Positions 410 to 10,871 of a stretch of 64,000 nucleotides of DNA are shown one piece after another. The position numbers and the translations under genes were made by a program. Source of the DNA: Myxococcales bacterium (GTDB lineage: Bacteria > Myxococcota_A > Polyangia > Palsa-1104). The stretch covers positions 34,944 through 98,943 of the forward strand of contig PNAM01000096.1 in the NCBI GenBank assembly GCA_003170275.1, in the 5' to 3' direction. Under the pieces are notes generated by a model. It was not told the origin of the DNA. It did no database searches and saw only the letters and a list, made by a program, of their open reading frames with translations. Within the stretch, counting starts at the first letter, position 1. Every line of letters starts with the position of its first letter.

Positions 410-1549
410 CTATTTTACCCCAGCATGAAACGGAACGCCGATCGGCGGCGCCGGTTGGCTCAGCGTCACCCCCACCGCGATCGCGCCGGCCGCCACGCCC
501 GCCACCGCCACCATCGCGGTCCAGAACCACCACTTCTTCGCCACCGACGGGCCGCGCAGCTGCTCGACCTGCACCGCGAACGGCAGCGCCTCGGAGCCGA
601 GGTGCTGCAGCACCGCATGGTTCTTGTCGAGGACCACGCCGAAGTATTCGATCTTCGAGCCCGGCGGCACGCCCATGGTGAACACGCGCGGCAGCGAAAT
701 CTTTCCCGCCTGCTGCGGCTGCAGCGACGAGAACGCCTTGCCGCCGCCCAGCCGATAGAACAGCTGGATGCCGGTCACCAGCGCGAAGCGATCGCCGCTC
801 ACGGTGAAGCTCACCTCGACCGGCTGGCCCGCTTTGAGCGAGCCCGGCTGGTTGTGCGCCACCGACAGCGACGGCCCAGGCCCTTGTCCGCGCGCGGCCT
901 CGAGCGCTTTCTTGGTGGCGTCGGGCGCGTCGCCCGGCAGCGTGGCGGTCGGATCGAGCTCGAGCGCGCGCCCGCACGCGTCGACCGCCGCCTGCGCGTC
1001 GCCCTTGCCCGCTTCGAGGGCGCAGCGCAACAGGTGCGCGCGCGTCACCCCGGGCCGCTCGTTGTTGGGCGTGCGCTCGTAGCTCTCGAGCTGCGCCTGC
1101 GCGTCGGCCGGCCGGCCCTGCGCGACGAACTCCTCGCCCAGCTTGAGCGCCTCTTCACCCTGCGCGCGCGAGGCGCGTTCCTTGGCCAGCCAATCCTCGG
1201 CTTCGCGCTGCTCCCCGTCGACCACCTCGCGGCGTTTGGGATCGGCTGCGCGCCCCGAGGCGATGTAAGCCTTGAAGTGCTCGATGGCCTGCTCGACGTA
1301 CTCGAGCTTGCGCGTGCGCGCGAACAGCTGCTTCTTGACCAGGCCCAGGTTGAACAGCAGCTCGGGCGCGGCGGTCAGCCGATACGAGGTCTCGAAGTGC
1401 TCGAGCGCCTTTTCGTAGTGACCGAGGTTGAACTCCTTCTTGGCGGCTTCGAACTCCTGGCGTCCGAGCTCCTTCAGGTCCGGCGCCTGCGCGCGTCCGA
1501 GCGACGGCGCGAGGAGGAGCAGGGCGACGAGATGGATGCGCAGCTTCAT
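410..1549 (-). CDS. Exported TPR-repeat protein with C-terminal TM anchor
   Basis: Signal peptide MKLRIHLVALLLLAPSLGRA; TPR-like helices (FNLGHYEKALEHFETSY, PELLFNLG); C-terminal KKWWFW plus hydrophobic helix; ATGA overlap with the upstream gene. Confidence 0.85.
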   Translation of the reverse strand: MKLRIHLVALLLLAPSLGRAQAPDLKELGRQEFEAAKKEFNLGHYEKALEHFETSYRLTAAPELLFNLGLVKKQLFARTRKLEYVEQAIEHFKAYIASGRAADPKRREVVDGEQREAEDWLAKERASRAQGEEALKLGEEFVAQGRPADAQAQLESYERTPNNERPGVTRAHLLRCALEAGKGDAQAAVDACGRALELDPTATLPGDAPDATKKALEAARGQGPGPSLSVAHNQPGSLKAGQPVEVSFTVSGDRFALVTGIQLFYRLGGGKAFSSLQPQQAGKISLPRVFTMGVPPGSKIEYFGVVLDKNHAVLQHLGSEALPFAVQVEQLRGPSVAKKWWFWTAMVAVAGVAAGAIAVGVTLSQPAPPIGVPFHAGVK

Positions 1550-4500
1550 AGGAGGGGCCCGCGGACGATCGAGATGGTCTTGGCCGCCGCCGCGCCCACC
1601 GCGACGTCGGGGTAGCCGTCGGAGTCGAAATCTCCGACGAGGAGCTGAGATCCCAGGGCGTCACCGGGGCGCGCGCCGAGGAGCGCGGCTGCGGCCGGCG
1701 AGCCGTTCGCGCCCAGCTGGAGCATCGGCGCCGCGCGCAGGGTGGCGCCGCGCACGACGTAGAAGGCGCCCGCTCCGGGCGTGGCCGCTGGGAGCGGCGA
1801 AGGCGCGCCGATGAGCAGCGCATCGCCGCCCGGCCAGGGAAGGACCGCGAGCGCCGCGCCCAACCTGCCGACGGGCGACGAGCCGCGGACGGTCTGGCTC
1901 GCCTTGGACAGCGGCAGGTCGCCGGCCAGGAAGTCCTGGGCGGCGAGCACGAACACGGTCCCTGCGCCGTCGTCGGGAGCGGCCACCGCCAGCGACGGTG
2001 AGGTGCCGTCGATCGAGAGCAGCGCCACCGCTTCACCAAAGCCACCGCCTTCGCCGAGCCAACGCCCGAGCGGCCCGGCGGCCACGTTCGGCGCGTTGAT
2101 CGCGCTCGCGCTCACCAGGTAGGCGGCACCGACGGTCTTGGCGTTGGGGTCGGTCGCCGCCGGTGCGCCGATCGCCACCTTGCCGCCCGAAGCCGCCAGC
2201 GCGCTGCCGAAGCGAGAACCGGCGGTGCCCTTCAGCGAAAGGGCCGCGGCCAGGCTGCCGGTGCCGTCGCGCGGGAGCTCGGCTGCGCGCAGCACGAACA
2301 CCGTCGCTGCGCCCTCGGCGCCGGCGAGCACGTCCAGCTTTCCGTCGCCGTCGACGTCGAGCAGCGCGATCGACGTGCCGAGCCGATCGCCGGTGTTGGT
2401 GCCGCTCACCGTCGAGAGCGTGGGTGTTCCTCCAGCCACGAACATCGATCCGCCGAAGATCACGAACACCGCGCCGCGCGTGTCGTTCGCGCCCGGCGCG
2501 CCGATCACCACATCGTCGGCGCCGTCGCCGTCGAGGTCGCCGACCGCGAGCGCCGCGCCATACTGCTCGCCGGGCTTGCCGGTCGCGCTGAAGTCCGGGG
2601 TCTGCTTGAACGCCGCGCCGCCCAGATAGATCGACACGATGCCCGAGTTCGGCGCGGATGCGTCGCCTTGGCTCGCGTTGGCCACCACCAGATCGCTGTG
2701 GGACGGTTTGGCGCCGGTGAGGTTGCCCGCCGCGAGGCGCCCGATCGGCGCGGTCGCCGACGTCACCGTCTGGTCGGCGTCGGTCACCGCGAGGTGCAGC
2801 GTGGCATCGGTGCAGTCGTCGACGCAGTCCGGCGCGAGGGTGGCCTTGCTCGTCTGGCCCGGGTTCAAGAGGGTCTGGATGCGGTCTTTGGTCGGATCGC
2901 GCGACGCGCCGCCGAGCTTCGCCAACCGGTTTTCGTAGACGTCGTACACTTCGGCGCGCACGGTGACGTTGAGCGCCATCGGCAGCGCGTCGGGCATCAG
3001 TCGGAAGGTGCTGGTCTTGTCGAGGCCGTAGTCCTTGGCCAGGTCGACCACGATGTCGCCCAGCCCGTCGCCGTCATAGTCGTAGTTGGAGACGATCAAC
3101 CCGGGCTTGACCGTCGCGGCCTGCATGGTGGGGTTGAACGAGAGCTTGTCGCTCGAGCTGATGATAATGCGCGCGTGCGCCGCGCTCACGAACTCTGGAT
3201 CGGTCAGCTTGAGCGTGAGCTCGAGGCCCGTCCCCGAGCTCGAGCAGCCCCCGACGACCAGGGCCAACGCGAGCCCGCGAATGCGCCGCCGTGACCACAC
3301 GAGCGCGACCAACGCCAACAGCCACGCCAGGCCGCCCGCTTCTCCGGGTCCGCCCACGCTGCAGCCGCCCGGCGGGGCCTTGCGCACGAACGGCGCCGGC
3401 CCGCTGGTCATGCACGCGCAGCTCCCGGTCATGCACGACCCGGTGCCACACACGTCGCTCGCGCAGGTAGTGCCGTCGGGCGCGTCGCTGAAGGTCGTGC
3501 AGTTGCTCAAGCTCGACGACACCGCGCACTGCCCAAACGACTCGCAGCTGTTGGCGGTCGGATCCGTATAGGTGCGGCATTGCGTCGACAGCCCTGCGCA
3601 CGAGACCTGCGGCGCCGGGCAGCGCGCGTCCGTGGTGGGCACCTCGACGCAGCCCTTGGAGCCGCACGCCTGGCAGATGCCGTCGCACGGAGTATCGCAG
3701 CAGACGCCGTGCGTGCAGATGCCCTGCCCGCACCCGGTCGCGTCGCTGCACACCCCTCCGAGCCCGACGATGCCGAGGCTGCGGTAGTGCACCCGCGGCG
3801 TAAAGGCGCCGCCGAACGACTCCAGGCGATCGTAGGCGATCAGCGCCTGGCCGGTGGGGGCGACGGCGAGCAGCGGCGAAGGCGTGAACCGCGGAGTGAA
3901 GGCGGTGTCGCCGCCGTACACCTGTCCAGGGATCTGGTCGGCACCCATCGCGCGAAAGGTCGCGTTCGCGTCGATCACGAACGGCGCCTCGAGCTTCTGC
4001 AGGGCCGCGTCGATCCGCACGCCCATCACGCCTGCGGGCGACGCCTCGATCCAGCTCACCAGGCCGATCGGCTGCCCGCCCGACGGCGTGCTGAATCCCA
4101 GCGCTGGCGCCTCGCGCACGCCGGTGCCGGTCATGAGGGTGGCCGCAGCGGCGGCCGGCGAGGTGGCGCCGTCGGCCAGCGCGACGACGCGAATCGAGTC
4201 GCTGTTCAGCAGCACGTCGCGCCAGGCTACGTACACCTGCTTGCCGTCCGAGCCCACCGCCGGCGCCCGCTCGGGATCCAGTTGCGCGCTCACCGTCGCG
4301 ATCGCACCGAGCACACCGGTCTTGGCGATCCACGCGCCCTTCACGTCGGAAGGACCCTTGTTGCCGTACTGGCTACACGGCGTCTCGAACGCGACGAAGT
4401 ATTGGGTACCGTCGAACGCCGCGGCCTGCGCGCAGGCCGCATCGGCAACCACGGCTTCGGTTCCCGGCGTTCCGTTGGGCGCCACCAGGTTGCCGAACAC

Positions 4501-6318
4501 CTGCGTGTTCAAGTCGTTCGCTACCACTCCGCGCCAGTCCTCCCATGCGACCAGCCAGCCCGCGCTCGAGCCTGCGACCGTCGGCGCCTGCTGTGCATAG
4601 AGTGCGGGCACAGCGCTGACGGCGATTCCGCCGGGGTCCTTCACGGTGCCGTCGGCTCCGACGCGGGTGGCATAGATCGACAAGGCGTTGCCGTTCGGCA
4701 GGTCGCGCCCGTCGGACCAGGCGACCAGAAAATCGCCGCTCGGCATGGCTCCCACTGCCGGCGTGATCTGGTCGTTGGGCGCACCCGCCGTGGCATCCGC
4801 GGGATCGCTACTGATGAGAAACGGCGCCGCATCGGCCGGCAGCCCGTTGAGCTTGAAGCGCATCCCGTACACGTCGAGGCTCGAGACGTCGAAGTTGCGA
4901 TCGTCCTCCCACACCAGCAGGAAGAGGTCTCCGTTCGACGCCGCGTGGTACCCGCGCTGAAAGCTGTGCGCCTGACTGAGTACGTGCGACGGCACCATCG
5001 GCAGCATTCCCGGCGCCGGCGGAGGGCTCACGCTCAGGTCGGTCGGTAGGGCGAAAACATCGTATCCGGTGATCCCGCCGGACAGTCCGCCGACGTACCC
5101 CACCCAGGCGGTGAACACATGCCCGGCGGCGTCCGTCGCGATCGCCTGCCGGAGCGAGTCGGTGTCACCCGGCAGGGTCGGGTTCACCTGCCCGATCGTG
5201 GCGTCGATCAGCGATCCACCGCCGTCGCCGACGCCGCTGCCGTCATAGCGCCCGCCATAGTGAAGGAGGAGGCCGCTGTTGAAGTCGAACGCCTCCCAGG
5301 AAAGAAAGAACTTCCCGGTGCCATTCGAGAGCGCCTGTGGCCGCTGGAAGGACGCCGTCGTGCTCGCGGCCAGAACCTGATCGGAGGCACCCAGGGTTCC
5401 CGTCAGGGACAGCGTACGCATCCAGATCTCGAAGATCGTCTTCGGTGTCCGAAGGTCTGCCCAATAGATGACGTAGCCGCTCCCGTCTGAGGCAGCGGTT
5501 GGGTGCGCTACCGCGGGTGCCCCGTCGGCTCGCGGCGCGCTGGTGTTGACCTGCTGCGATGGCTTCGGTCCGGTGGCGTCGAGGAGCGCCGCCCGTACCT
5601 GCGTCGGCGGCTGAGCGTTGCCGCCGGCGAGTGGCTGGATCTCCCAGAGCACCAGATAGCTCGCGCCGCTGCCGCTCCACGTTACCGACGGCACACCCGT
5701 GATCTGGGTGGCGGTGGTGTCCGAGACCAGTCTGGCGTTGATGGTGCCCGACGCTGTCTCGTTCTGAAACAGCGTGCACTCGACGACGAAATTGTTCCCG
5801 ACCAGCACGTGCTCCCAGCACACCAGCGCGCTGTTCGCGCCGCCGCCCACGGAGGGGTCTACATGCGCGCCGCTTCCGGCGGTGAGCATCGTGGCGGTTC
5901 CGACCGCTGTCGCCGACGGCGCCGCCGGATCGACCAGCACCGAGGCGATCTGCGGCGTGCCTCCTCCCGCATCGCTGTACGTCACCAAGAACTTGCTGCC
6001 ATCGAACGCGACCGCCGGAGTGAGCAGCTGGCCGCTGCCCGTGGCGATGGCCAAGGCCGGGAAGTCGATCACCGTTCCGGCCGCAGTGAAGCGCACGCCG
6101 CGGATATTGGAGATGCCGCTGACGCCGGGCAGCAGGTCCGCCCAGACCGCCAGGTACACGCCGCCGCCGTACGCGATCGATGCGCGCTGCTGGTCGCCGA
6201 CCTGCGCGGCGAGCTTGGGCGCGTCGACCGGCAGGTCCATCGAGAGCACCGGCTGCGCGCGCGCGACCGGCACGCAGAGGATCCCGCCAACCACAGCAAT
6301 CACGAGGCCAGAGCGCAT
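1546..6318 (-). CDS. Large exported protein (1590 aa): repeat/propeller region, Cys-rich region, internal MYXO-CTERM-like motif, second lipoprotein signal, FG-GAP repeats
   Basis: Start reassigned to ATG 6318 (MRSGLVIAVVGGILCVPVARAQ signal peptide). Repeats of YLxVWxD.R...I.G.R type; Cys-rich block (CTHGVCCDTPCDGICQAC); FG-GAP repeats (GDLDGDGADDVVIGAPG, DVDGDGKLDVLAGA, GDFDSDGYPDVAVGA). Confidence 0.85.
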   Translation of the reverse strand: MRSGLVIAVVGGILCVPVARAQPVLSMDLPVDAPKLAAQVGDQQRASIAYGGGVYLAVWADLLPGVSGISNIRGVRFTAAGTVIDFPALAIATGSGQLLTPAVAFDGSKFLVTYSDAGGGTPQIASVLVDPAAPSATAVGTATMLTAGSGAHVDPSVGGGANSALVCWEHVLVGNNFVVECTLFQNETASGTINARLVSDTTATQITGVPSVTWSGSGASYLVLWEIQPLAGGNAQPPTQVRAALLDATGPKPSQQVNTSAPRADGAPAVAHPTAASDGSGYVIYWADLRTPKTIFEIWMRTLSLTGTLGASDQVLAASTTASFQRPQALSNGTGKFFLSWEAFDFNSGLLLHYGGRYDGSGVGDGGGSLIDATIGQVNPTLPGDTDSLRQAIATDAAGHVFTAWVGYVGGLSGGITGYDVFALPTDLSVSPPPAPGMLPMVPSHVLSQAHSFQRGYHAASNGDLFLLVWEDDRNFDVSSLDVYGMRFKLNGLPADAAPFLISSDPADATAGAPNDQITPAVGAMPSGDFLVAWSDGRDLPNGNALSIYATRVGADGTVKDPGGIAVSAVPALYAQQAPTVAGSSAGWLVAWEDWRGVVANDLNTQVFGNLVAPNGTPGTEAVVADAACAQAAAFDGTQYFVAFETPCSQYGNKGPSDVKGAWIAKTGVLGAIATVSAQLDPERAPAVGSDGKQVYVAWRDVLLNSDSIRVVALADGATSPAAAAATLMTGTGVREAPALGFSTPSGGQPIGLVSWIEASPAGVMGVRIDAALQKLEAPFVIDANATFRAMGADQIPGQVYGGDTAFTPRFTPSPLLAVAPTGQALIAYDRLESFGGAFTPRVHYRSLGIVGLGGVCSDATGCGQGICTHGVCCDTPCDGICQACGSKGCVEVPTTDARCPAPQVSCAGLSTQCRTYTDPTANSCESFGQCAVSSSLSNCTTFSDAPDGTTCASDVCGTGSCMTGSCACMTSGPAPFVRKAPPGGCSVGGPGEAGGLAWLLALVALVWSRRRIRGLALALVVGGCSSSGTGLELTLKLTDPEFVSAAHARIIISSSDKLSFNPTMQAATVKPGLIVSNYDYDGDGLGDIVVDLAKDYGLDKTSTFRLMPDALPMALNVTVRAEVYDVYENRLAKLGGASRDPTKDRIQTLLNPGQTSKATLAPDCVDDCTDATLHLAVTDADQTVTSATAPIGRLAAGNLTGAKPSHSDLVVANASQGDASAPNSGIVSIYLGGAAFKQTPDFSATGKPGEQYGAALAVGDLDGDGADDVVIGAPGANDTRGAVFVIFGGSMFVAGGTPTLSTVSGTNTGDRLGTSIALLDVDGDGKLDVLAGAEGAATVFVLRAAELPRDGTGSLAAALSLKGTAGSRFGSALAASGGKVAIGAPAATDPNAKTVGAAYLVSASAINAPNVAAGPLGRWLGEGGGFGEAVALLSIDGTSPSLAVAAPDDGAGTVFVLAAQDFLAGDLPLSKASQTVRGSSPVGRLGAALAVLPWPGGDALLIGAPSPLPAATPGAGAFYVVRGATLRAAPMLQLGANGSPAAAALLGARPGDALGSQLLVGDFDSDGYPDVAVGAAAAKTISIVRGPLL

Positions 6319-6329
6319 GTCGGATCCTT

Positions 6330-6857
6330 TTAGCGGGTATAGACGACGTGCATGGGGGCCGTGATCATGCCGGGCACGCCCTCGAGCGTGGCCTGCACCT
6401 GCCAGTCGCCGTCCTCGGGATAGCGGATGAAAGACGTCCCACCGATGGGCAGGCCGCGATCGAGGGCCGAGCCGCCCGGTACCGCCAGCACCGGGTTCAT
6501 GTTGAGCGGCTCGCCCATCTGCGCGTGCATCATCTGGCCGCCTGCCGGGTCGGTGGTGAACGCGGCGTCGTCGCTGTAGGTGAGCACCCCCTTCGGATTC
6601 ACGAACTGAAGGTGGAGCATGGTCGCCTTCGGCATCTGCGGCGTGATCACGCGGACCCACAATTCGTCGAGCGCCGAGAAGTTGAATGCGGTCTTCAACA
6701 CCCCGTTCTCGATCCCGAGCCGGCTGTCAGAGAGCTCAATCGCCGAGCCGATCGGCGGCGGTCCCCCCGGGTCCGGCGGTGGCGTCATCATCGTGGTGCT
6801 CGCGCCGCCCTTGCAGCCGGCCACCGCGACGAACAGGAGCATTATTGACGTGCGCAT
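6330..6857 (-). CDS. Hypothetical lipoprotein
   Basis: MRTSIMLLFVAVAG-C lipobox followed by a Pro/Gly linker; alternative ATG at 6866; tightly packed in the operon. Confidence 0.75.
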   Translation of the reverse strand: MRTSIMLLFVAVAGCKGGASTTMMTPPPDPGGPPPIGSAIELSDSRLGIENGVLKTAFNFSALDELWVRVITPQMPKATMLHLQFVNPKGVLTYSDDAAFTTDPAGGQMMHAQMGEPLNMNPVLAVPGGSALDRGLPIGGTSFIRYPEDGDWQVQATLEGVPGMITAPMHVVYTR

Positions 6858-6871
6858 GGTCGTCATCCTTT

Positions 6872-9800
6872 TCACGGCCACAGGGGCATACTGATGAACG
6901 AAGGGTTGGTGTTCGGGCCCGTCACGGTCATGCGGATCAGATCCGCGTTCGCCGCCGCGACTCGCCCGTCGACGGAGAACGAATAGGGCACGTTGATCGG
7001 CGAGCCATTCTGCGAGCCCGTGAGCGACAAGGTCTTGGCCATGTCGCCGACGTTGTAGACGTGGACCGGACCGCCCTGCGCCAGGTAGGAGTTGGAGAAG
7101 TACAGGACCAGATCCTGAACCCCGCCCGTCACGTCACGCGCCTCGAAGTAGACGTCGCCATACAGCGGATCGGCCGACGTGCTCAGCACACCGATGATGT
7201 TTTGCTCCGCCATGTTCGTCGGATCGGGCTGGTACCACGCGGGGTCGGCCAGGTCGGCCCAGATGCCCGAGCTCGCGCCGCCCATCATGCCGTCGCCCTT
7301 CCAGTGCCAAAAGAAGACCTTGGTCCCCTGGGTGATGATCGCGTCTTGTGGGATCGCGTCGATCGTGGTGCACCCTGCCCCCATCGAGCGGCAGGCGTAG
7401 TCGGTCCAGGCGAGCGTGGTGATGCGGCCGCCGCTCACCCAGCCGGTGAAGGGTAAAGGCGGCCAGCCCAGGACCGTCGGATTGGTGAACGTGCACCCCG
7501 ACCCGGAACCCGAGCAGTCGGCGTTGATGCGGAACAGATCGCCATTGTTGGGCCAGTTGGCGTACAGCATGCCGAGCCACGAGGTCCCCTCCTGGACGCC
7601 GGTCTCGAGCATGACGGGGCCGACCACACCCTCGTTGTAGATCCTATTGTTGTACGGGCAGTTCCCGCCCGGACAGCTGCTCGATCCGAACACGTCCCCG
7701 GTGCTCTGGGAGTCGTCGATGTTGTTGCCGGACGCCGTGACCTGGATGTTGTCGACGTACGCAGTGGTCGGATCGCCCGGGCAGCCGTCGTCGTGGACCA
7801 TGAATTCGAGCGTGCCGGTTACCCCGGCCAGGTCGCTGACGTCTGCCGACGCTGACTCCCACGTCCCGTCGCCGAGCGTGTTGGCCAGGAGCGTCTTGGA
7901 TCCGAAGAACGGGAAGCTGCCGTAGTTGAACACCGCATGGAAGTTGTCGAAGGTGATGCTGTCGTTGCTCACGACCTTATACGCGAAGTCGATGGTCGTC
8001 GCACCGTCCGGAATCTTGATGTTCGTCTGGTAGATGTAGTTGTTGTTGGGGGTGCCGCAGCTGCTCAAGGTGCTGTTGAGGCGCGCGCACTGCGTGCCCG
8101 CACCCACGGAGCAGCCCGACGACTGAACGGCGGTGCTGCCTACCGAGGTCCAGTTGGTGAAGCCGCTCTCGAAGCTCGGGTTCTTGACCAGGTTGGTCGT
8201 ATCGCCCGGGACCACCAGGAACATGCCCGGCTGCGGGTTGCCGCCGGCCGGGTAGTTGATTCGCGTACCGGCGATCGCCCAATTGGCGTCGTAGACGAAC
8301 GACTCGTCGGTGACCCACATCGGCCAGACGCCGTGGAACGGGTAGACCGGCGGAGCGCCGAATATTGCGCAGTCACAGGCGGCCTCGGTCCACGTCGACA
8401 CGCGCCAGGGGGCGTTCGGATCGACGAGCGCGATGCCGTTGTTGAACCCGGGTCCGATGACCGGGCCGAAGAAGCCGCACGTGCCACTGCAGGCCGGGCC
8501 GGTGTTGGTCGTGTTGTAGGTCGAGAACGCCAGGCCGCAGCGCGTTCCGTCGGCGCCGCCCGTGAGCGTCCGCAGCGTCGGAAACGCGATGTTGTCGGCG
8601 CCCATGAGCGAGGTGGCGAGGTTGTTGAGCTGCGCTTCAGTGGGCGCGGTCGGGCTGCAGTAGAAGGTCTCGTCGCGCACGCAGATGCCCTGCACGCACT
8701 TGTCGACGCCGGCCGGCGTAGTGGCGCCGAAGCGGCTCGCCGCGCAGGCGTTCCCGCAGGAGCCGCAGTTCGAGCGATCGTTCATGATGTCGACGCACTT
8801 GGCTCCGCCGCAGCAGTACGTGCCATTGGGACAGGCGCCCTTTTGCCCGGCGGTGTTGCACGAGGCAGGGGAGCACGTCGAGTCGGTGGTGTTGAAGACG
8901 CATTGCCCCGCCTGGCAGTGGCCGTCTGCGCCGCCCGGGCAGAAGCCACCCGACGGCGAATCACAGCCGCAGCTGACACCGTCGTTGCAGGAGGTGCCGT
9001 TGGCGACCACCTGCGGGTTGCAGTTGCCGGTGATGGGGTTGCAGACGTAGGTGACGCACGGGGTGTTGGCCGGGCACTGGCACGACACCTTCGGCCCGGG
9101 CGCGCCCGGCGGGAGGATGCTGGTGCCAGGGCCGCCGCTGAGCGGCCACGGCACGCAGTAGGTCTTGAAGTTCTGGGCGCCGGTGCCGGCGGTGTTGATC
9201 GACGTCGCCACCCGCATGCGGTCGAGATCGACCGACGAGGTGGTGGCGACATCGAGCGCCGGATCGTAGACCGTGTCGGTCCCGCCGGCCGCGGCCGTGT
9301 ACTGCTCGTCGGTGCCGGTGATCAGGTTGAGCTGGTGCAGCTGCCCGTTGTTCAGCCCGACGTAGACCTTGCCGGCGAGATTCGAGAGGACCGGCGCGCT
9401 CATCACCTTGGCGCCGCCCGTCGGCGTATAGGTCCAGGAGAGGCCGGGGGCGCCGCCGTTGTCGGTCACCGAGTGCAGCACGCCGGCGGAGTCGCCGACC
9501 ATCACCACGGTGTTCATGCCGCCTGTCAGGCGCGGCTCGGGCCATGGGCTGCGGTTGATCGATCCGCCCGCGATGATCGGCGTGGTCCAGATGGTGCTGC
9601 CGTCGACGGCGCTGTGCACGCGCAGCGTGCCGGTCTGCGTACCGAGGTACAGCCGGTTGCCGCGCAGCTCGGGGCGCGTGATGAGCGAGTCCGCGTTCAC
9701 CGACCAGGAGAGCGTGCCGTTGACCGTCGAGATGGCCCACAGCGACGCCTGCGGGTGTGAGATCGGGACCTGGGTGCCGCAGTAGATGAGATCGTTGGTG

Positions 9801-10471
9801 TAGTCGATCGAGCAGCCCTCCGAGCCGTAGGACATGGGATAGGTGCCGGCGAGGTTGAAGGTCCAGGCGACGGTGCAGTTCGAGCCGTGCAGCGCGTAGA
9901 CCTTGTTCGCCGTGGTGTCCGAGCACATGTGCTTGGTGATGACGAAGACCAGGTCGTCGTTCCACGTGGTCTGGAAGCTCCCGCCCGGGGTCGAGTAGGC
10001 ATTGAGCTGCACCGTCGGCGAGCCGACGATCGTGTCCGAGCTGCAGGTGGCGCCGCGTCCGAGGAGCGGCGAGGTGCACTGCAACGTCGGGGTCCCCGGT
10101 GCATTGCTGTCGAAGTCATAGCGCCGCACCTTGGCGTCGGCGCCGGCGATGAAGATGGAGGTCTTGGTGCCGTTGTTCTTGAGCGGTACCGGAATCGGGA
10201 CGTTGCTGATGGTCGCCGGCGACGGCGTGACCGAGTACTTGGTCGCCGCGTTGGTGTTGTCGACGATGTACATCGTCTTGTCCTGGGCGGTGTAGCTGAA
10301 CGACTTGCCCTTCGGGTTCCAGGAGGTGTCGCTGATCGCCGACGTGGCGCTGCCGCCTGCTGCATTGAGCTGCGTGTGATCGATCGCGTTGAGGCTGCAC
10401 TGAGCCTCGGCGCGACCCGCGGCCCACCCCAAGACCCCGAAGCACGCGGCGAGAGCCAAGGACCTTGTCAC
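6872..10471 (-). CDS. Large secreted protein: PQQ-like beta-propeller, Cys-rich/Stigma1-like repeats, carbohydrate-binding-like domain
   Basis: GGAGG SD 6 nt before GTG at 10471; signal peptide (TRSLALAACFGVLGWAAGRAEAQ); propeller blades (LWAISTVNGTLSWS, LYLGTQTGTL); DIMNDRSNCGSCGNAC motif; NLVKNPSFESGFTNW jelly-roll/CBM-like start. Confidence 0.8.
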   Translation of the reverse strand: MTRSLALAACFGVLGWAAGRAEAQCSLNAIDHTQLNAAGGSATSAISDTSWNPKGKSFSYTAQDKTMYIVDNTNAATKYSVTPSPATISNVPIPVPLKNNGTKTSIFIAGADAKVRRYDFDSNAPGTPTLQCTSPLLGRGATCSSDTIVGSPTVQLNAYSTPGGSFQTTWNDDLVFVITKHMCSDTTANKVYALHGSNCTVAWTFNLAGTYPMSYGSEGCSIDYTNDLIYCGTQVPISHPQASLWAISTVNGTLSWSVNADSLITRPELRGNRLYLGTQTGTLRVHSAVDGSTIWTTPIIAGGSINRSPWPEPRLTGGMNTVVMVGDSAGVLHSVTDNGGAPGLSWTYTPTGGAKVMSAPVLSNLAGKVYVGLNNGQLHQLNLITGTDEQYTAAAGGTDTVYDPALDVATTSSVDLDRMRVATSINTAGTGAQNFKTYCVPWPLSGGPGTSILPPGAPGPKVSCQCPANTPCVTYVCNPITGNCNPQVVANGTSCNDGVSCGCDSPSGGFCPGGADGHCQAGQCVFNTTDSTCSPASCNTAGQKGACPNGTYCCGGAKCVDIMNDRSNCGSCGNACAASRFGATTPAGVDKCVQGICVRDETFYCSPTAPTEAQLNNLATSLMGADNIAFPTLRTLTGGADGTRCGLAFSTYNTTNTGPACSGTCGFFGPVIGPGFNNGIALVDPNAPWRVSTWTEAACDCAIFGAPPVYPFHGVWPMWVTDESFVYDANWAIAGTRINYPAGGNPQPGMFLVVPGDTTNLVKNPSFESGFTNWTSVGSTAVQSSGCSVGAGTQCARLNSTLSSCGTPNNNYIYQTNIKIPDGATTIDFAYKVVSNDSITFDNFHAVFNYGSFPFFGSKTLLANTLGDGTWESASADVSDLAGVTGTLEFMVHDDGCPGDPTTAYVDNIQVTASGNNIDDSQSTGDVFGSSSCPGGNCPYNNRIYNEGVVGPVMLETGVQEGTSWLGMLYANWPNNGDLFRINADCSGSGSGCTFTNPTVLGWPPLPFTGWVSGGRITTLAWTDYACRSMGAGCTTIDAIPQDAIITQGTKVFFWHWKGDGMMGGASSGIWADLADPAWYQPDPTNMAEQNIIGVLSTSADPLYGDVYFEARDVTGGVQDLVLYFSNSYLAQGGPVHVYNVGDMAKTLSLTGSQNGSPINVPYSFSVDGRVAAANADLIRMTVTGPNTNPSFISMPLWP

Positions 10472-10871
10472 GTAAGACCTCCGGCGGCGAGACTGCATAA
10501 AGGTTGTATTGCGCAAAGCTTCGCCTCCCACGAACCATCCATTGTAGCCCCTTTGACGTCGCACCGGTGCAGAAAAGCTCGGATCCGGCGCCGCCGAATC
10601 AGCCGGTGGTCGATCCAGCGCCGCGCGTGCGGCGTCCCTACGAGCAGCCGCAGATCATCTGGTGAGAGGCCTACGAGCCGATGGGCCTCGGCATTTCGTG
10701 CGCGAAGTTTCCCGGTCTTCATCTCACCCGAAGCCCAGAGCAATCGCCGTACCGAACCCATAGCCCTGCGAATCCGTGGTTTCTCGACGAGAATGGGCCG
10801 CCGCGGGTGGCACGTGCCAGGCACAGTGTGCCGCATTTGGTGTGGGCGGGGGTGCGACCGCGCCCACGCGA

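What the first reader, a model, noticed from the sequence alone, without database searches (positions are those of the whole stretch)
3235..3390. Internal MYXO-CTERM-like sorting signal fused directly to a second lipoprotein signal peptide: a candidate surface polyprotein
Seen in sequence: in the uninterrupted 1590-aa ORF (1546-6318), about residues 982-1012 read PPGG-C986-SVGGPGEAGG-LAWLLALVALVWS-RRR. This is a Gly-Gly-Cys, spacer, TM helix, Arg cluster motif. It continues in frame with IRGLALALVVGG-C1025-SSSG, an h-region plus lipobox, and then a ~566-aa FG-GAP protein. The Arg cluster would serve both as the MYXO-CTERM tail and as the n-region of the second signal. Established: MYXO-CTERM normally ends the protein (e.g. 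Myxococcus TraA), and lipoboxes normally sit at N-termini. Inference: one translation product could be processed by SPase I, a myxosortase and Lgt/LspA into two surface-anchored proteins at fixed 1:1 stoichiometry. Alternatively it stays as a membrane hairpin with two exported halves. An in-frame GTG at 3300 (MWSRRRIRGL...) could also give an internal start.
Basis: partly seen in the sequence, partly recalled or inferred. Interest (0 to 1): 0.82.

Follow-up and report, generated by a model that had tools for sequence, protein, structure and literature searches.

The report
Two-in-one myxobacterial envelope polyprotein gene
One long gene of a peat-soil myxobacterium joins a surface-tagged protein to a lipoprotein through two back-to-back membrane sorting signals, and the same joint recurs in many related genes, so one precursor is probably cut into two separately lipid-anchored proteins.

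Summary
Window 1546-6318 (-) is one uninterrupted 1590-aa frame. Residues 984-1012 match MYXO-CTERM (TIGR03901) above its cut-off. They run straight into a short hydrophobic stretch and a lipobox Cys (C1025), followed by a 566-aa FG-GAP protein. It is not an assembly error: contigs of two studies cover the joint without a difference.

It is not a one-off either. Six other metagenome homologues (37-52% identity) are fused the same way. In the five aligned, both Cys, two Arg and the lipobox Gly are invariant. In this genome 5 of 32 MYXO-CTERM matches are internal, and all 5 are followed at once by a lipobox. The same joint was read in 15 genomes of the class and 2 of other classes, in unrelated protein families. 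One frame has two joints.

Split forms also exist, both as paralogues in this genome and as standalone lipoproteins.

Best reading (0.5): a Sec-exported polyprotein with a hairpin joint, cut by a myxosortase and by Lgt/LspA into two lipid-anchored proteins. No processing was shown, and an internal start is not excluded.

Internal MYXO-CTERM tags are already in print as rare gene fusions (MXAN_5598). The recurrent tag-plus-lipobox joint was not found in print, so I rate it a new variant of a known kind.

The parts
1546..6318 (-). Uninterrupted 1590-aa ORF (stop codon at 1546-1548), predicted precursor 159.5 kDa
   Evidence: full-length alignment with four fused homologues
6256..6318 (-). N-terminal Sec-type signal peptide, residues 1-21 (cleavage site assigned by eye)
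   Evidence: hydropathy peak at residues 8-14; hydrophobic N-termini in all 5 aligned homologues
3757..6255 (-). N-part repeat region (residues 22-854). It has no Pfam or NCBIfam family; BNR-propeller-like is a weak lead only.
3409..3756 (-). Cys-rich region (residues 855-970) ahead of the tag; 25 of the protein's 29 Cys lie in the N-part
   Evidence: many invariant Cys columns in A1
3283..3369 (-). Internal MYXO-CTERM tag (residues 984-1012): Gly-Gly-Cys986, spacer, hydrophobic helix, Arg cluster
   Evidence: TIGR03901 at 22.3-29 bits against cut-off 20; G985, C986 and R1011 invariant in 5 of 5
3277..3294 (-). Basic cluster (residues 1009-1014, four Arg). It is shared as the cytoplasmic tail of the tag and the n-region of the second signal.
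   Evidence: R1011 and R1014 invariant
3244..3276 (-). Second signal: 10-residue h-region (1015-1024) plus lipobox Cys1025
   Evidence: fits the lipobox core regex; L1018, G1024 and C1025 invariant in 5 of 5; the Cys stands 7 residues before the same conserved motif as the N-terminal lipobox Cys of the standalone paralogue on C72
3298..3300 (-). In-frame GTG (Val1007), a possible internal start; Cys1025 would then be residue 19
   Evidence: The residue is not conserved in homologues, but L132 has an ATG two codons before its Arg cluster.
1549..3246 (-). C-part, 566 aa (55.8 kDa): predicted lipoprotein with FG-GAP repeats. The Pfam matches lie at about 2116-2697.
   Evidence: 48-50% identical to the standalone 580-aa lipoprotein on contig C72 of the same genome
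6872..10564 (-). Upstream neighbour, 1230 aa, with a BamB/PQQ-like propeller
   Evidence: PF13360, 40.1 bits
410..1549 (-). Downstream neighbour, 379 aa, a TPR-like protein. Similar-looking ORFs follow the FG-GAP genes at the C43 and C72 loci.
   Evidence: weak TPR matches below Pfam cut-offs; ORF lists, likeness judged by eye

Best explanation
The gene encodes an envelope polyprotein. Shown: one open frame joins a MYXO-CTERM-tagged protein to a lipoprotein through a joint of about 40 residues. The joint runs Gly-Cys, spacer, short hydrophobic helix, Arg cluster, short h-region, lipobox Cys. This joint is conserved and recurrent. Inferred mechanism: the N-terminal signal peptide sends the chain through Sec. 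The tag helix stops transfer with the Arg cluster left in the cytoplasm. The following h-region re-inserts N-in/C-out like a signal peptide and exports the FG-GAP part. Lgt then acylates Cys1025 and LspA cuts before it, freeing a lipoprotein of about 56 kDa. Cys986 is lipidated and a myxosortase-family CPBP protease cuts after it, freeing an N-part of about 98 kDa, which the type II secretion route takes to the surface as described for TraA. A 38-residue hairpin peptide is left behind. The result is two separately lipid-anchored partners made 1:1. Extra copies of the C-part from an internal start are possible and compatible with this reading.
For: The frame is real, and contigs of two studies cover the joint without a difference. 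The tag scores above the TIGR03901 cut-off, and 4 of the 5 aligned fused homologues match it at E<=0.01. There are seven fused family members: the window, P0003-P0006, L132 and the 5'-cut P0009. At 37-52% identity, G985, C986, R1011, R1014, L1018, G1024 and C1025 are invariant in the five aligned. In this genome 27 of 32 TIGR03901 matches have a stop within 26 aa. All 5 internal matches are followed at once by an h-region and a lipobox Cys, and a regex scan adds two more. The background rate is 33 of 15,743. The joint occurs in unrelated families: a trypsin-like protease, an FGE-sulfatase-domain protein and two families without a Pfam match. It was read in all 15 rows of the class search that reach profile position 46 or more without a stop. 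It was also read in 2 of the 12 such rows from other classes, and in named MAG contigs L018 (two joints in one 4583-aa frame), L052, L057, L074 and L079. The h-regions are 9-21 residues long (median 13), which is signal-peptide length and too short for a stable membrane span; 25 of 30 fit the lipobox core. The machinery is present: two lspA, lgt, and one myxosortase-family CPBP protease (NF040914, 125 bits against cut-off 100). In print, MrtX cleaves MYXO-CTERM, Lgt is proposed as the lipidating enzyme, and an internal tag (MXAN_5598) is proposed to be processed (PMC11980579, passages read).
Against: No protein-level or RNA data exist, so cleavage at either Cys is inferred. Whether Lgt and LspA accept a lipobox that follows a hairpin rather than a free N-terminus was not found in print. 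Split forms of the same family are viable: paralogues on C43 and C72, and standalone lipoproteins P0011, P0013-P0015 and P0017. Fusion is therefore not required. A lost stop in a GC-rich Arg-codon stretch may be hard to regain, so persistence could be tolerated rather than selected. Trees do not resolve whether there was one fusion event. Start-capable codons are somewhat enriched just before the Arg cluster of fused joints (17/27 against 42/110). That fits retained internal starts.
Confidence: 0.5

Rival explanations
1. Two in-frame overlapping cistrons. Functional FG-GAP lipoprotein comes only from its own start (GTG 3298-3300 here). The read-through tail of the upstream protein stays in the cytoplasm and is discarded after myxosortase cleavage.
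For: An in-frame GTG stands 2 codons before the Arg cluster, and Cys1025 would then be residue 19 of an ordinary lipoprotein precursor. L132 has an ATG at the matching place. Start-capable codons in the last 4 codons before the cluster number 17/27 in fused joints against 42/110 in terminal tags. Fisher p is 0.029, uncorrected, and kin are not independent. Standalone paralogues start right there.
Against: Without a stop, every ribosome that finishes the N-part must also make the 566-aa C-part. Discarding it would be costly, yet the fusion is kept in 7 family members and in other families. Val1007 is not conserved. By eye there is no Shine-Dalgarno-like stretch upstream of the GTG. Over 10 codons the enrichment is not significant (p 0.15). 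Leu and Val codons abound in any membrane helix.
Confidence: 0.17
2. Unprocessed two-domain membrane protein. The joint is a permanent helical hairpin that tethers two exported domains to the inner membrane.
For: The topology rules (positive-inside Arg loop between two hydrophobic stretches) allow a hairpin. No cleavage has been shown.
Against: The second stretch has only 9-13 residues in this family, and 9-21 overall. A mere hairpin gives no reason to keep the Gly-Cys of the tag and the lipobox Gly-Cys invariant. The tag still scores as MYXO-CTERM. The C-part's standalone relatives are ordinary lipoproteins with the Cys at the same place.
Confidence: 0.1
3. Tolerated accident. A stop was lost between two abutting genes, and the fusion persists only because a stop is hard to regain. 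Processing still happens, but the fusion itself has no benefit.
For: Split and fused forms coexist at similar identity. The split C72/C80 paralogues nest among fused forms in the trees, without strong support. One joint in this genome (C82) is followed by only 37 aa after its lipobox Cys. That could be decay.
Against: The fused state is kept between different genomes in at least four families. These are the window family; C102 with L191/L195; C12 with L197/L198; and L104/L105/L192 and L074/L079. Multi-joint frames exist (L018). This rival differs from the best explanation only in whether the fusion is selected.
Confidence: 0.15
4. Assembly or sequencing artefact, or a pseudogene.
For: The genome is a 118-contig assembly with 6% contamination. 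X3 leaves an 8-nt hole at 3291-3298.
Against: A 23.9-kb contig at depth 15.5 and contigs of a second study are identical across the joint. Homologues from other assemblies share the fusion. Both halves align end to end with homologues without frame breaks.
Confidence: 0.03

Closest known systems
MXAN_5598 of Myxococcus xanthus: internal MYXO-CTERM motif (Guo, Haft and Wall, mBio 2025, PMC11980579; passages read, Table S1 not seen)
   Same: A MYXO-CTERM tag sits in the middle of an ORF. [quoted passage not shown] The same phylum and the same sorting enzyme family are involved.
   Different: In that paper the C-terminal part is an outer-membrane beta-barrel/OmpA protein, and no lipobox is mentioned. 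It is called rare and atypical. Here the tag runs straight into a lipoprotein signal that shares the Arg cluster, and the joint is conserved and recurs across families and genomes. Four joints I read (L106, L199, L200, L201) carry a signal-peptidase-I-like signal and may be the MXAN_5598 kind. I did not see the MXAN_5598 sequence.
Ordinary C-terminal MYXO-CTERM proteins such as TraA, with partner TraB encoded by an overlapping ORF (PMC11980579, passage read)
   Same: The tripartite tag has an invariant Cys, a helix and an Arg-rich tail. There is a partner gene directly downstream, and cleavage is by MrtX.
   Different: In TraA the tag ends the protein, and the partner is a separate polypeptide.
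Haloferax volcanii ArtA substrate with a tripartite sorting structure that is not at the C terminus (Abdul Halim et al. 2017; title seen only in the reference list of PMC11980579; the paper is not held)
   Same: A C-terminal-type sorting signal works from inside a protein.
   Different: It is an archaeal PGF-type signal with an archaeosortase. No lipoprotein signal follows, as far as I can tell from the title.
Bacterial lipoprotein precursors (Lgt/LspA pathway)
   Same: A positively charged n-region, a short h-region and a lipobox Cys are present. The C-part's standalone relatives are such precursors.
   Different: The signal lies about 1000 residues inside the chain, and its n-region is the tail of another sorting signal.
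FbcH cytochrome b/c1 polyprotein of Bradyrhizobium japonicum, cut at an internal signal sequence (recalled, not confirmed by any search; the search found no relevant paper)
   Same: One bacterial membrane precursor is split at an internal signal peptide into two proteins in fixed ratio.
   Different: That case involves signal peptidase I, no lipid anchors and no sortase-type tag.

Membership tests
MYXO-CTERM sorting domain (TIGR03901) | Score at or above the curated cut-off of the model | tested here: met
   22.3 bits on the whole protein and 27.2-29 bits on the excised piece, against cut-off 20
MYXO-CTERM sorting domain (TIGR03901) | Invariant Cys in a short signature, then a hydrophobic helix, then an Arg-rich tail | tested here: met
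   Cys986, hydrophobic residues 997-1008 and four Arg in 1009-1014; C986 and R1011 invariant in 5 of 5
MYXO-CTERM sorting domain (TIGR03901) | Lies at the extreme C-terminus of the protein | tested here: not met
   578 residues follow the match. In this genome 27 of 32 matches end within 26 aa of a stop.
MYXO-CTERM sorting domain (TIGR03901) | Host is a Myxococcota genome with many such tags and a myxosortase | tested here: met
   32 matches over the cut-off; a CPBP protein matches NF040914 (myxosortase family) at 125.2 bits against cut-off 100. It is below the cut-offs of the MrtP, MrtX and MrtC models.
MYXO-CTERM sorting domain (TIGR03901) | Cleaved by myxosortase, with the product on the cell surface | not testable with these tools
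   Needs expression and immunoblotting with and without the protease
Bacterial lipoprotein signal peptide (lipobox; PROSITE PS51257-type rule, pattern recalled) | Uncharged h-region followed by a lipobox ending in Cys | tested here: met
   The core regex is met for the window and for 25 of 30 joints; G1024 and C1025 are invariant
Bacterial lipoprotein signal peptide (lipobox; PROSITE PS51257-type rule, pattern recalled) | Basic n-region just before the h-region | tested here: met
   Four Arg in residues 1009-1014; 3-10 basic residues in all 30 joints
Bacterial lipoprotein signal peptide (lipobox; PROSITE PS51257-type rule, pattern recalled) | Stands at the N-terminus, with the Cys within about the first 35 residues | tested here: not met
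   The Cys is residue 1025 of the ORF. The feature is met only if translation starts at GTG 3298-3300, making the Cys residue 19.
Bacterial lipoprotein signal peptide (lipobox; PROSITE PS51257-type rule, pattern recalled) | Lgt and LspA are encoded in the genome | tested here: met
   lspA twice over the cut-off; lgt 119.2 bits against 118.9, plus four weaker matches
Bacterial lipoprotein signal peptide (lipobox; PROSITE PS51257-type rule, pattern recalled) | A dedicated predictor (SignalP 6 or LipoP) calls an SPase II site | not tested
FG-GAP repeat proteins (PF01839) | Repeat matches over the Pfam gathering score | tested here: met
   67.8 bits on the whole ORF and 77.9 bits on the C-part, against 22.1
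Internal-tag fusions of the MXAN_5598 kind | Adhesin plus internal MYXO-CTERM, followed by an OM beta-barrel/OmpA part | tested here: not met
   The C-part is an FG-GAP lipoprotein with no OmpA or barrel family match

The most novel reading that the evidence does not exclude
Myxococcota use a dedicated double-anchor joint as a general way to build envelope polyproteins. The joint is a tag Cys, a helix, an Arg loop, a signal h-region and a lipobox Cys. One Sec substrate is cut on both sides of a disposable hairpin into two, or in some frames three, separately lipidated proteins. The parts are thereby delivered together and in fixed ratio, for example a surface receptor plus its outer-membrane partner. 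Because the two Cys sit mirror-wise at the outer face of the same hairpin, the joint would also be a natural substrate for testing whether Lgt lipidates the MYXO-CTERM Cys.
Probability: 0.4. Interest if true: 0.78.

Novelty: new variant of a known kind. Interest (0 to 1): 0.62.

Why it matters
Bacterial envelope proteins are almost always made one chain at a time. A natural precursor that yields two lipid-anchored proteins would be an unusual biogenesis route.

It would also explain gene calls of 1500-4500 aa in myxobacterial genomes that annotation now files as single proteins.

The joint offers a compact test object for two open questions raised in the myxosortase paper. The first is which enzyme lipidates the MYXO-CTERM Cys. 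The second is whether internal tags are processed. The joint also tests whether Lgt and LspA can act on a signal peptide that has no free N-terminus.

For annotation, a MYXO-CTERM match far from the C-terminus that is followed by a lipobox should be read as a boundary between two mature proteins.

Tried and rejected
RNA evidence: no RNA holder was listed, so nothing can be said on expression.

Close orthologues in 40 relatives' genomes: none with this query, only short FG-GAP or Cys-rich matches (best E 1.8e-8).

The scan of species-representative genomes gave no close fused orthologue. Records of the window's own genome may be left out of that scan.

The metagenome scan gave two long matches. 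L132 is fused. L133's contig ends before the joint, so it says nothing.

Rows of the class search with a stop inside the profile match were checked as possible abutting gene pairs. The two I read (L103 and L124, of 6 that reach position 46) are ordinary terminal tags followed by chance similarity. L113, which reaches only position 42, is the same. These rows are not evidence of split pairs.

Trees of the N-part (10 rows) and C-part (8 rows) were used to ask whether there was one fusion event. The result is unresolved. Fused forms are not one clade in the best trees, but holding them together is not rejected (AU p 0.237 and 0.116). The trees were quick searches with few rows, and the C43 paralogue sits on a long branch.

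The ESM Atlas search on the N-part gave only unnamed clusters, and BNR-like clusters at 0.83-0.85. That is a lead only.

Literature searches for 'internal lipobox' and for 'internal signal peptide' with lipoprotein, polyprotein and bacteria each found 0 papers. The FbcH search found nothing relevant. PMC5350275 is not held. The Haft preprint (10.1101/2023.06.07.544157) has 0 occurrences of internal, lipoprotein, fusion, polyprotein or lipobox.

Supplement Table S1 of PMC11980579 may list more internal tags. I could not see it.

The coordinates were then obtained from a pattern-only script.

Structure prediction, complex prediction and the representative-protein search were not used. I judged that they could not separate the rival readings.
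Full report
OBSERVATION. The minus strand of the window holds one open frame from 6318 to 1546, 1590 aa from the ATG; the frame stays open back to a GTG at 6660. It contains Gly-Gly-Cys986, a 10-residue spacer and a 12-residue hydrophobic stretch (997-1008). A six-residue cluster with four Arg follows (1009-1014), then a 10-residue uncharged h-region (1015-1024), Cys1025 and 565 further residues. The in-frame GTG at 3298-3300 is also real. NCBIfam TIGR03901 (MYXO-CTERM) matches residues 984-1012 at 22.3 bits on the whole protein and 27-29 bits on the excised piece, against a cut-off of 20. Pfam finds FG-GAP repeats only in the C-part. The protein's three hydropathy peaks are the N-terminal signal, the tag helix and the second h-region.

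IS THE FRAME REAL? Logan contigs of four runs were laid on 2700-3900. A 23.9-kb contig of X1, which may be the source sample, covers the whole stretch at depth 15.5 with no difference. Run X5, from a different study, has a 212-nt contig over 3153-3364 and a 282-nt contig over 3345-3626, also without a difference. X3 covers 2990-3290 and 3299-3726, leaving an 8-nt hole with no loose ends there. X6 does not reach the joint. No other letters, indels or joints were listed. These are contigs at low depth, not raw reads. Even so, an assembly chimera or a missed stop is unlikely.

RELATIVES OF THIS GENE. A search of the 5.8-billion-protein collection with residues 880-1180 found 7 proteins at E<=0.001 among 5863 candidates. 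One is the window's own protein. Four are metagenome proteins of 1551-1583 aa that cover the joint completely at 37-52% identity (P0003-P0006). One is a 1887-aa MYXO-CTERM protein that covers only the N side (P0007). The last is a weak kelch hit.

In the alignment of the five fused proteins (A1), both halves align end to end. At the joint, G985, C986, R1011, R1014, L1018, G1024 and C1025 are invariant while the residues between them vary. Four of the five match TIGR03901 at E<=0.01. A metagenome contig (L132) adds a sixth fused member with a 1569-aa frame. P0009, cut at its 5' end on a 2.6-kb contig, adds a seventh.

Split forms exist too. In the window's own genome the N-part has three paralogues that end in ordinary terminal tags (contigs C43, C72, C80). 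The C-part has two paralogues that are ordinary lipoproteins (C43, C72). On C43 and C72 the two lie a few kb apart. Standalone lipoproteins of 575-596 aa at 37-46% identity occur in metagenomes (P0011, P0013-P0015, P0017). P0013 and the tag protein P0007 are both reported on a contig of 12,850 nt.

Trees of the two parts do not place all fused forms in one clade. Holding them together is not rejected (AU p 0.237 and 0.116). The number of fusion or fission events therefore stays open. No close relatives were found in 40 genomes of the same family and order with this query.

THE JOINT IS A RECURRENT ARCHITECTURE. TIGR03901 finds 32 places over its cut-off in the window's genome, with 150 of 217 candidates scored. 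I read the frame beyond each match. In 27 of them a stop follows within 26 aa. The other 5 run on for 50-578 aa, and in all 5 the Arg cluster is followed at once by an uncharged stretch and a lipobox Cys. A regex scan adds two weaker cases, on C97 and C5.

These frames belong to different families. One is a trypsin-like protease joined to a lipoprotein. One is a 2024-aa Cys-rich protein joined to a part with an FGE-sulfatase domain. Two are paralogous proteins without any Pfam family (C102, C12). One is a protein without any Pfam match whose joint is followed by only 37 aa after its lipobox Cys (C82).

As a background rate, a lipobox core within 25 aa after an internal Arg-Arg-Arg/Lys occurs in 33 of 15,743 cases in frames of 400 aa or more of this genome.

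A 50-position profile of eight joints (A2) was searched in 301 genomes of the class. Of the matches, 150 rows were listed and 1268 were not. Outside the window's genome, 15 listed rows in 15 genomes of 9 family-level groups reach profile position 46 or beyond without a stop. I read all 15, and each is a tag, Arg cluster, h-region and lipobox Cys followed by more than 190 aa. Several are orthologues of the C102/C12 family in other genera, so the fused state is kept there as well.

Four rows that stop at positions 43-44 are tags followed by a signal that ends in an Ala-x-Ala-like site instead of a lipobox.

In 121 genomes of the phylum, 12 rows in 7 genomes of other classes meet the same criterion. 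I read 2 of them, and both are lipobox joints.

Named MAG contigs fetched hold further cases. L057 has two paralogous kelch-like units in tandem. L018 has a 4583-aa frame with two joints, that is, three units. L052 holds one case, and L074 and L079 form an orthologous pair.

Over 30 joints the h-region is 9-21 residues long (median 13). There are 3-10 basic residues, and 25 of 30 fit the lipobox core pattern, which I wrote from memory of the PROSITE rule. Kin are not independent, so these counts describe spread and are not a statistical test.

MECHANISM. The following steps are shown. The chain is one frame. It starts with a Sec-type signal. It carries a bona fide MYXO-CTERM tag followed by a segment with every sequence feature of a lipoprotein signal except its position. 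The key residues of both signals are conserved. The genome encodes two LspA, Lgt (one match over the cut-off and four weaker) and one CPBP protease that passes the myxosortase-family model NF040914.

The rest is inferred. Topology rules make the tag helix a stop-transfer segment with the Arg cluster inside the cell. The next stretch is an N-in/C-out signal, so the C-part is exported. Lgt and LspA then act at Cys1025, and a myxosortase acts at Cys986. This gives products of about 98 and 56 kDa and a 38-residue leftover.

The published model for terminal tags is Sec export, lipidation of the Cys (perhaps by Lgt), cleavage by MrtX and surface delivery by the type II system. The published proposal that the internal tag of MXAN_5598 is processed makes the N-side step plausible (PMC11980579, passages read). 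The shortness of the second stretch argues against a permanent hairpin. Because there is no stop, the full-length chain must be made whenever the N-part is made. Its long-term retention argues that the C-part of that chain is not wasted.

WHAT SPEAKS AGAINST. Nothing here shows cleavage. I found no report that Lgt and LspA process a lipobox behind a hairpin. Start-capable codons in the last four codons before the Arg cluster are commoner in fused joints (17 of 27) than in terminal tags (42 of 110). Fisher p is 0.029, uncorrected, and kin are not independent. Over ten codons the counts are 23 of 27 against 78 of 110 (p 0.15). L132 has an ATG at that place. An internal start may therefore add to, or in the rival reading account for, the C-part. 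Split relatives show that fusion is not needed for function, and a lost stop may simply be hard to regain.

COMPARISON AND NOVELTY. Internal MYXO-CTERM motifs are in print as rare cases. MXAN_5598 is read there as a fusion of an adhesin with an outer-membrane barrel/OmpA protein (PMC11980579). That paper uses the word lipobox once, in another context. The Haft preprint does not use internal, fusion, lipoprotein or polyprotein at all. My two full-text searches for an internal lipobox or signal found nothing. I could not see the supplementary table that lists the M. xanthus tags.

The window's gene fails one defining feature of each signal family, namely position. I therefore file it as working like both signals rather than as a standard member of either. 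Three things are new here: the direct tag-to-lipobox joint with a shared Arg cluster, its conservation, and its recurrence across families and across the phylum. That makes it a new variant of a known kind.

VERDICT. The best reading is a polyprotein cut on both sides of a hairpin joint (confidence 0.5). Interest is 0.62.

Noticed in passing
L018 (JBNLDK010000109.1, Polyangiaceae MAG), + strand, 4583-aa open frame: One open frame holds two tag-plus-lipobox joints, at about residues 1594 and 3154 of the frame. That makes three units in a row, the longest chain of this kind seen here.
   Followed up: partly
L106, L199, L200, L201 (genomes G218, G068, G283, G093): An internal MYXO-CTERM tag is followed by a signal that ends in an Ala-x-Ala-like site instead of a lipobox. 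Two of the four downstream parts begin with a similar short motif. This may be the MXAN_5598/TraA-TraB-like kind of fusion.
   Followed up: partly
G000 contig C82:13125-15527 (locus L099): The joint is followed by only 37 aa after its lipobox Cys before a stop. This could be a tiny lipopeptide, a decayed downstream unit or a frameshift.
   Followed up: no
G000 contig C97:66248-69036, plus C102, C28 and C66: There are two lspA genes in tandem next to two lgt-like genes, and five lgt-like matches in the genome in all. Only one of the five is over the curated cut-off. Spare Lgt paralogues are of interest given the proposal that Lgt lipidates MYXO-CTERM.
   Followed up: no
window 6872-10564 (-) and 410-1549 (-); L013, L014, L015: The N-part and FG-GAP families travel with the same neighbours in several loci. 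These are a large Cys-rich or BamB-like propeller protein upstream and a TPR-like protein after the FG-GAP gene. On C72 a Ser/Thr-kinase-like ORF lies between them. The kinase and the likeness of the neighbours were judged by eye from the ORF translations.
   Followed up: partly
P0007 and P0013 (metagenome proteins, both on a contig of 12,850 nt): P0007 is a relative of the N-part whose tag carries an unusually long basic tail. P0013 is a standalone FG-GAP lipoprotein whose called start has no basic n-region. Together they may be a fused gene broken by a frameshift, or an overlapping pair. The DNA could not be fetched.
   Followed up: no
window 1546-6318 (-), residues 22-854: The N-part is built of a dozen or so repeats with a recurring aromatic-Trp-acidic motif. 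It matches no Pfam or NCBIfam family. The Atlas gives only BNR-propeller-like leads at 0.83-0.85.
   Followed up: partly
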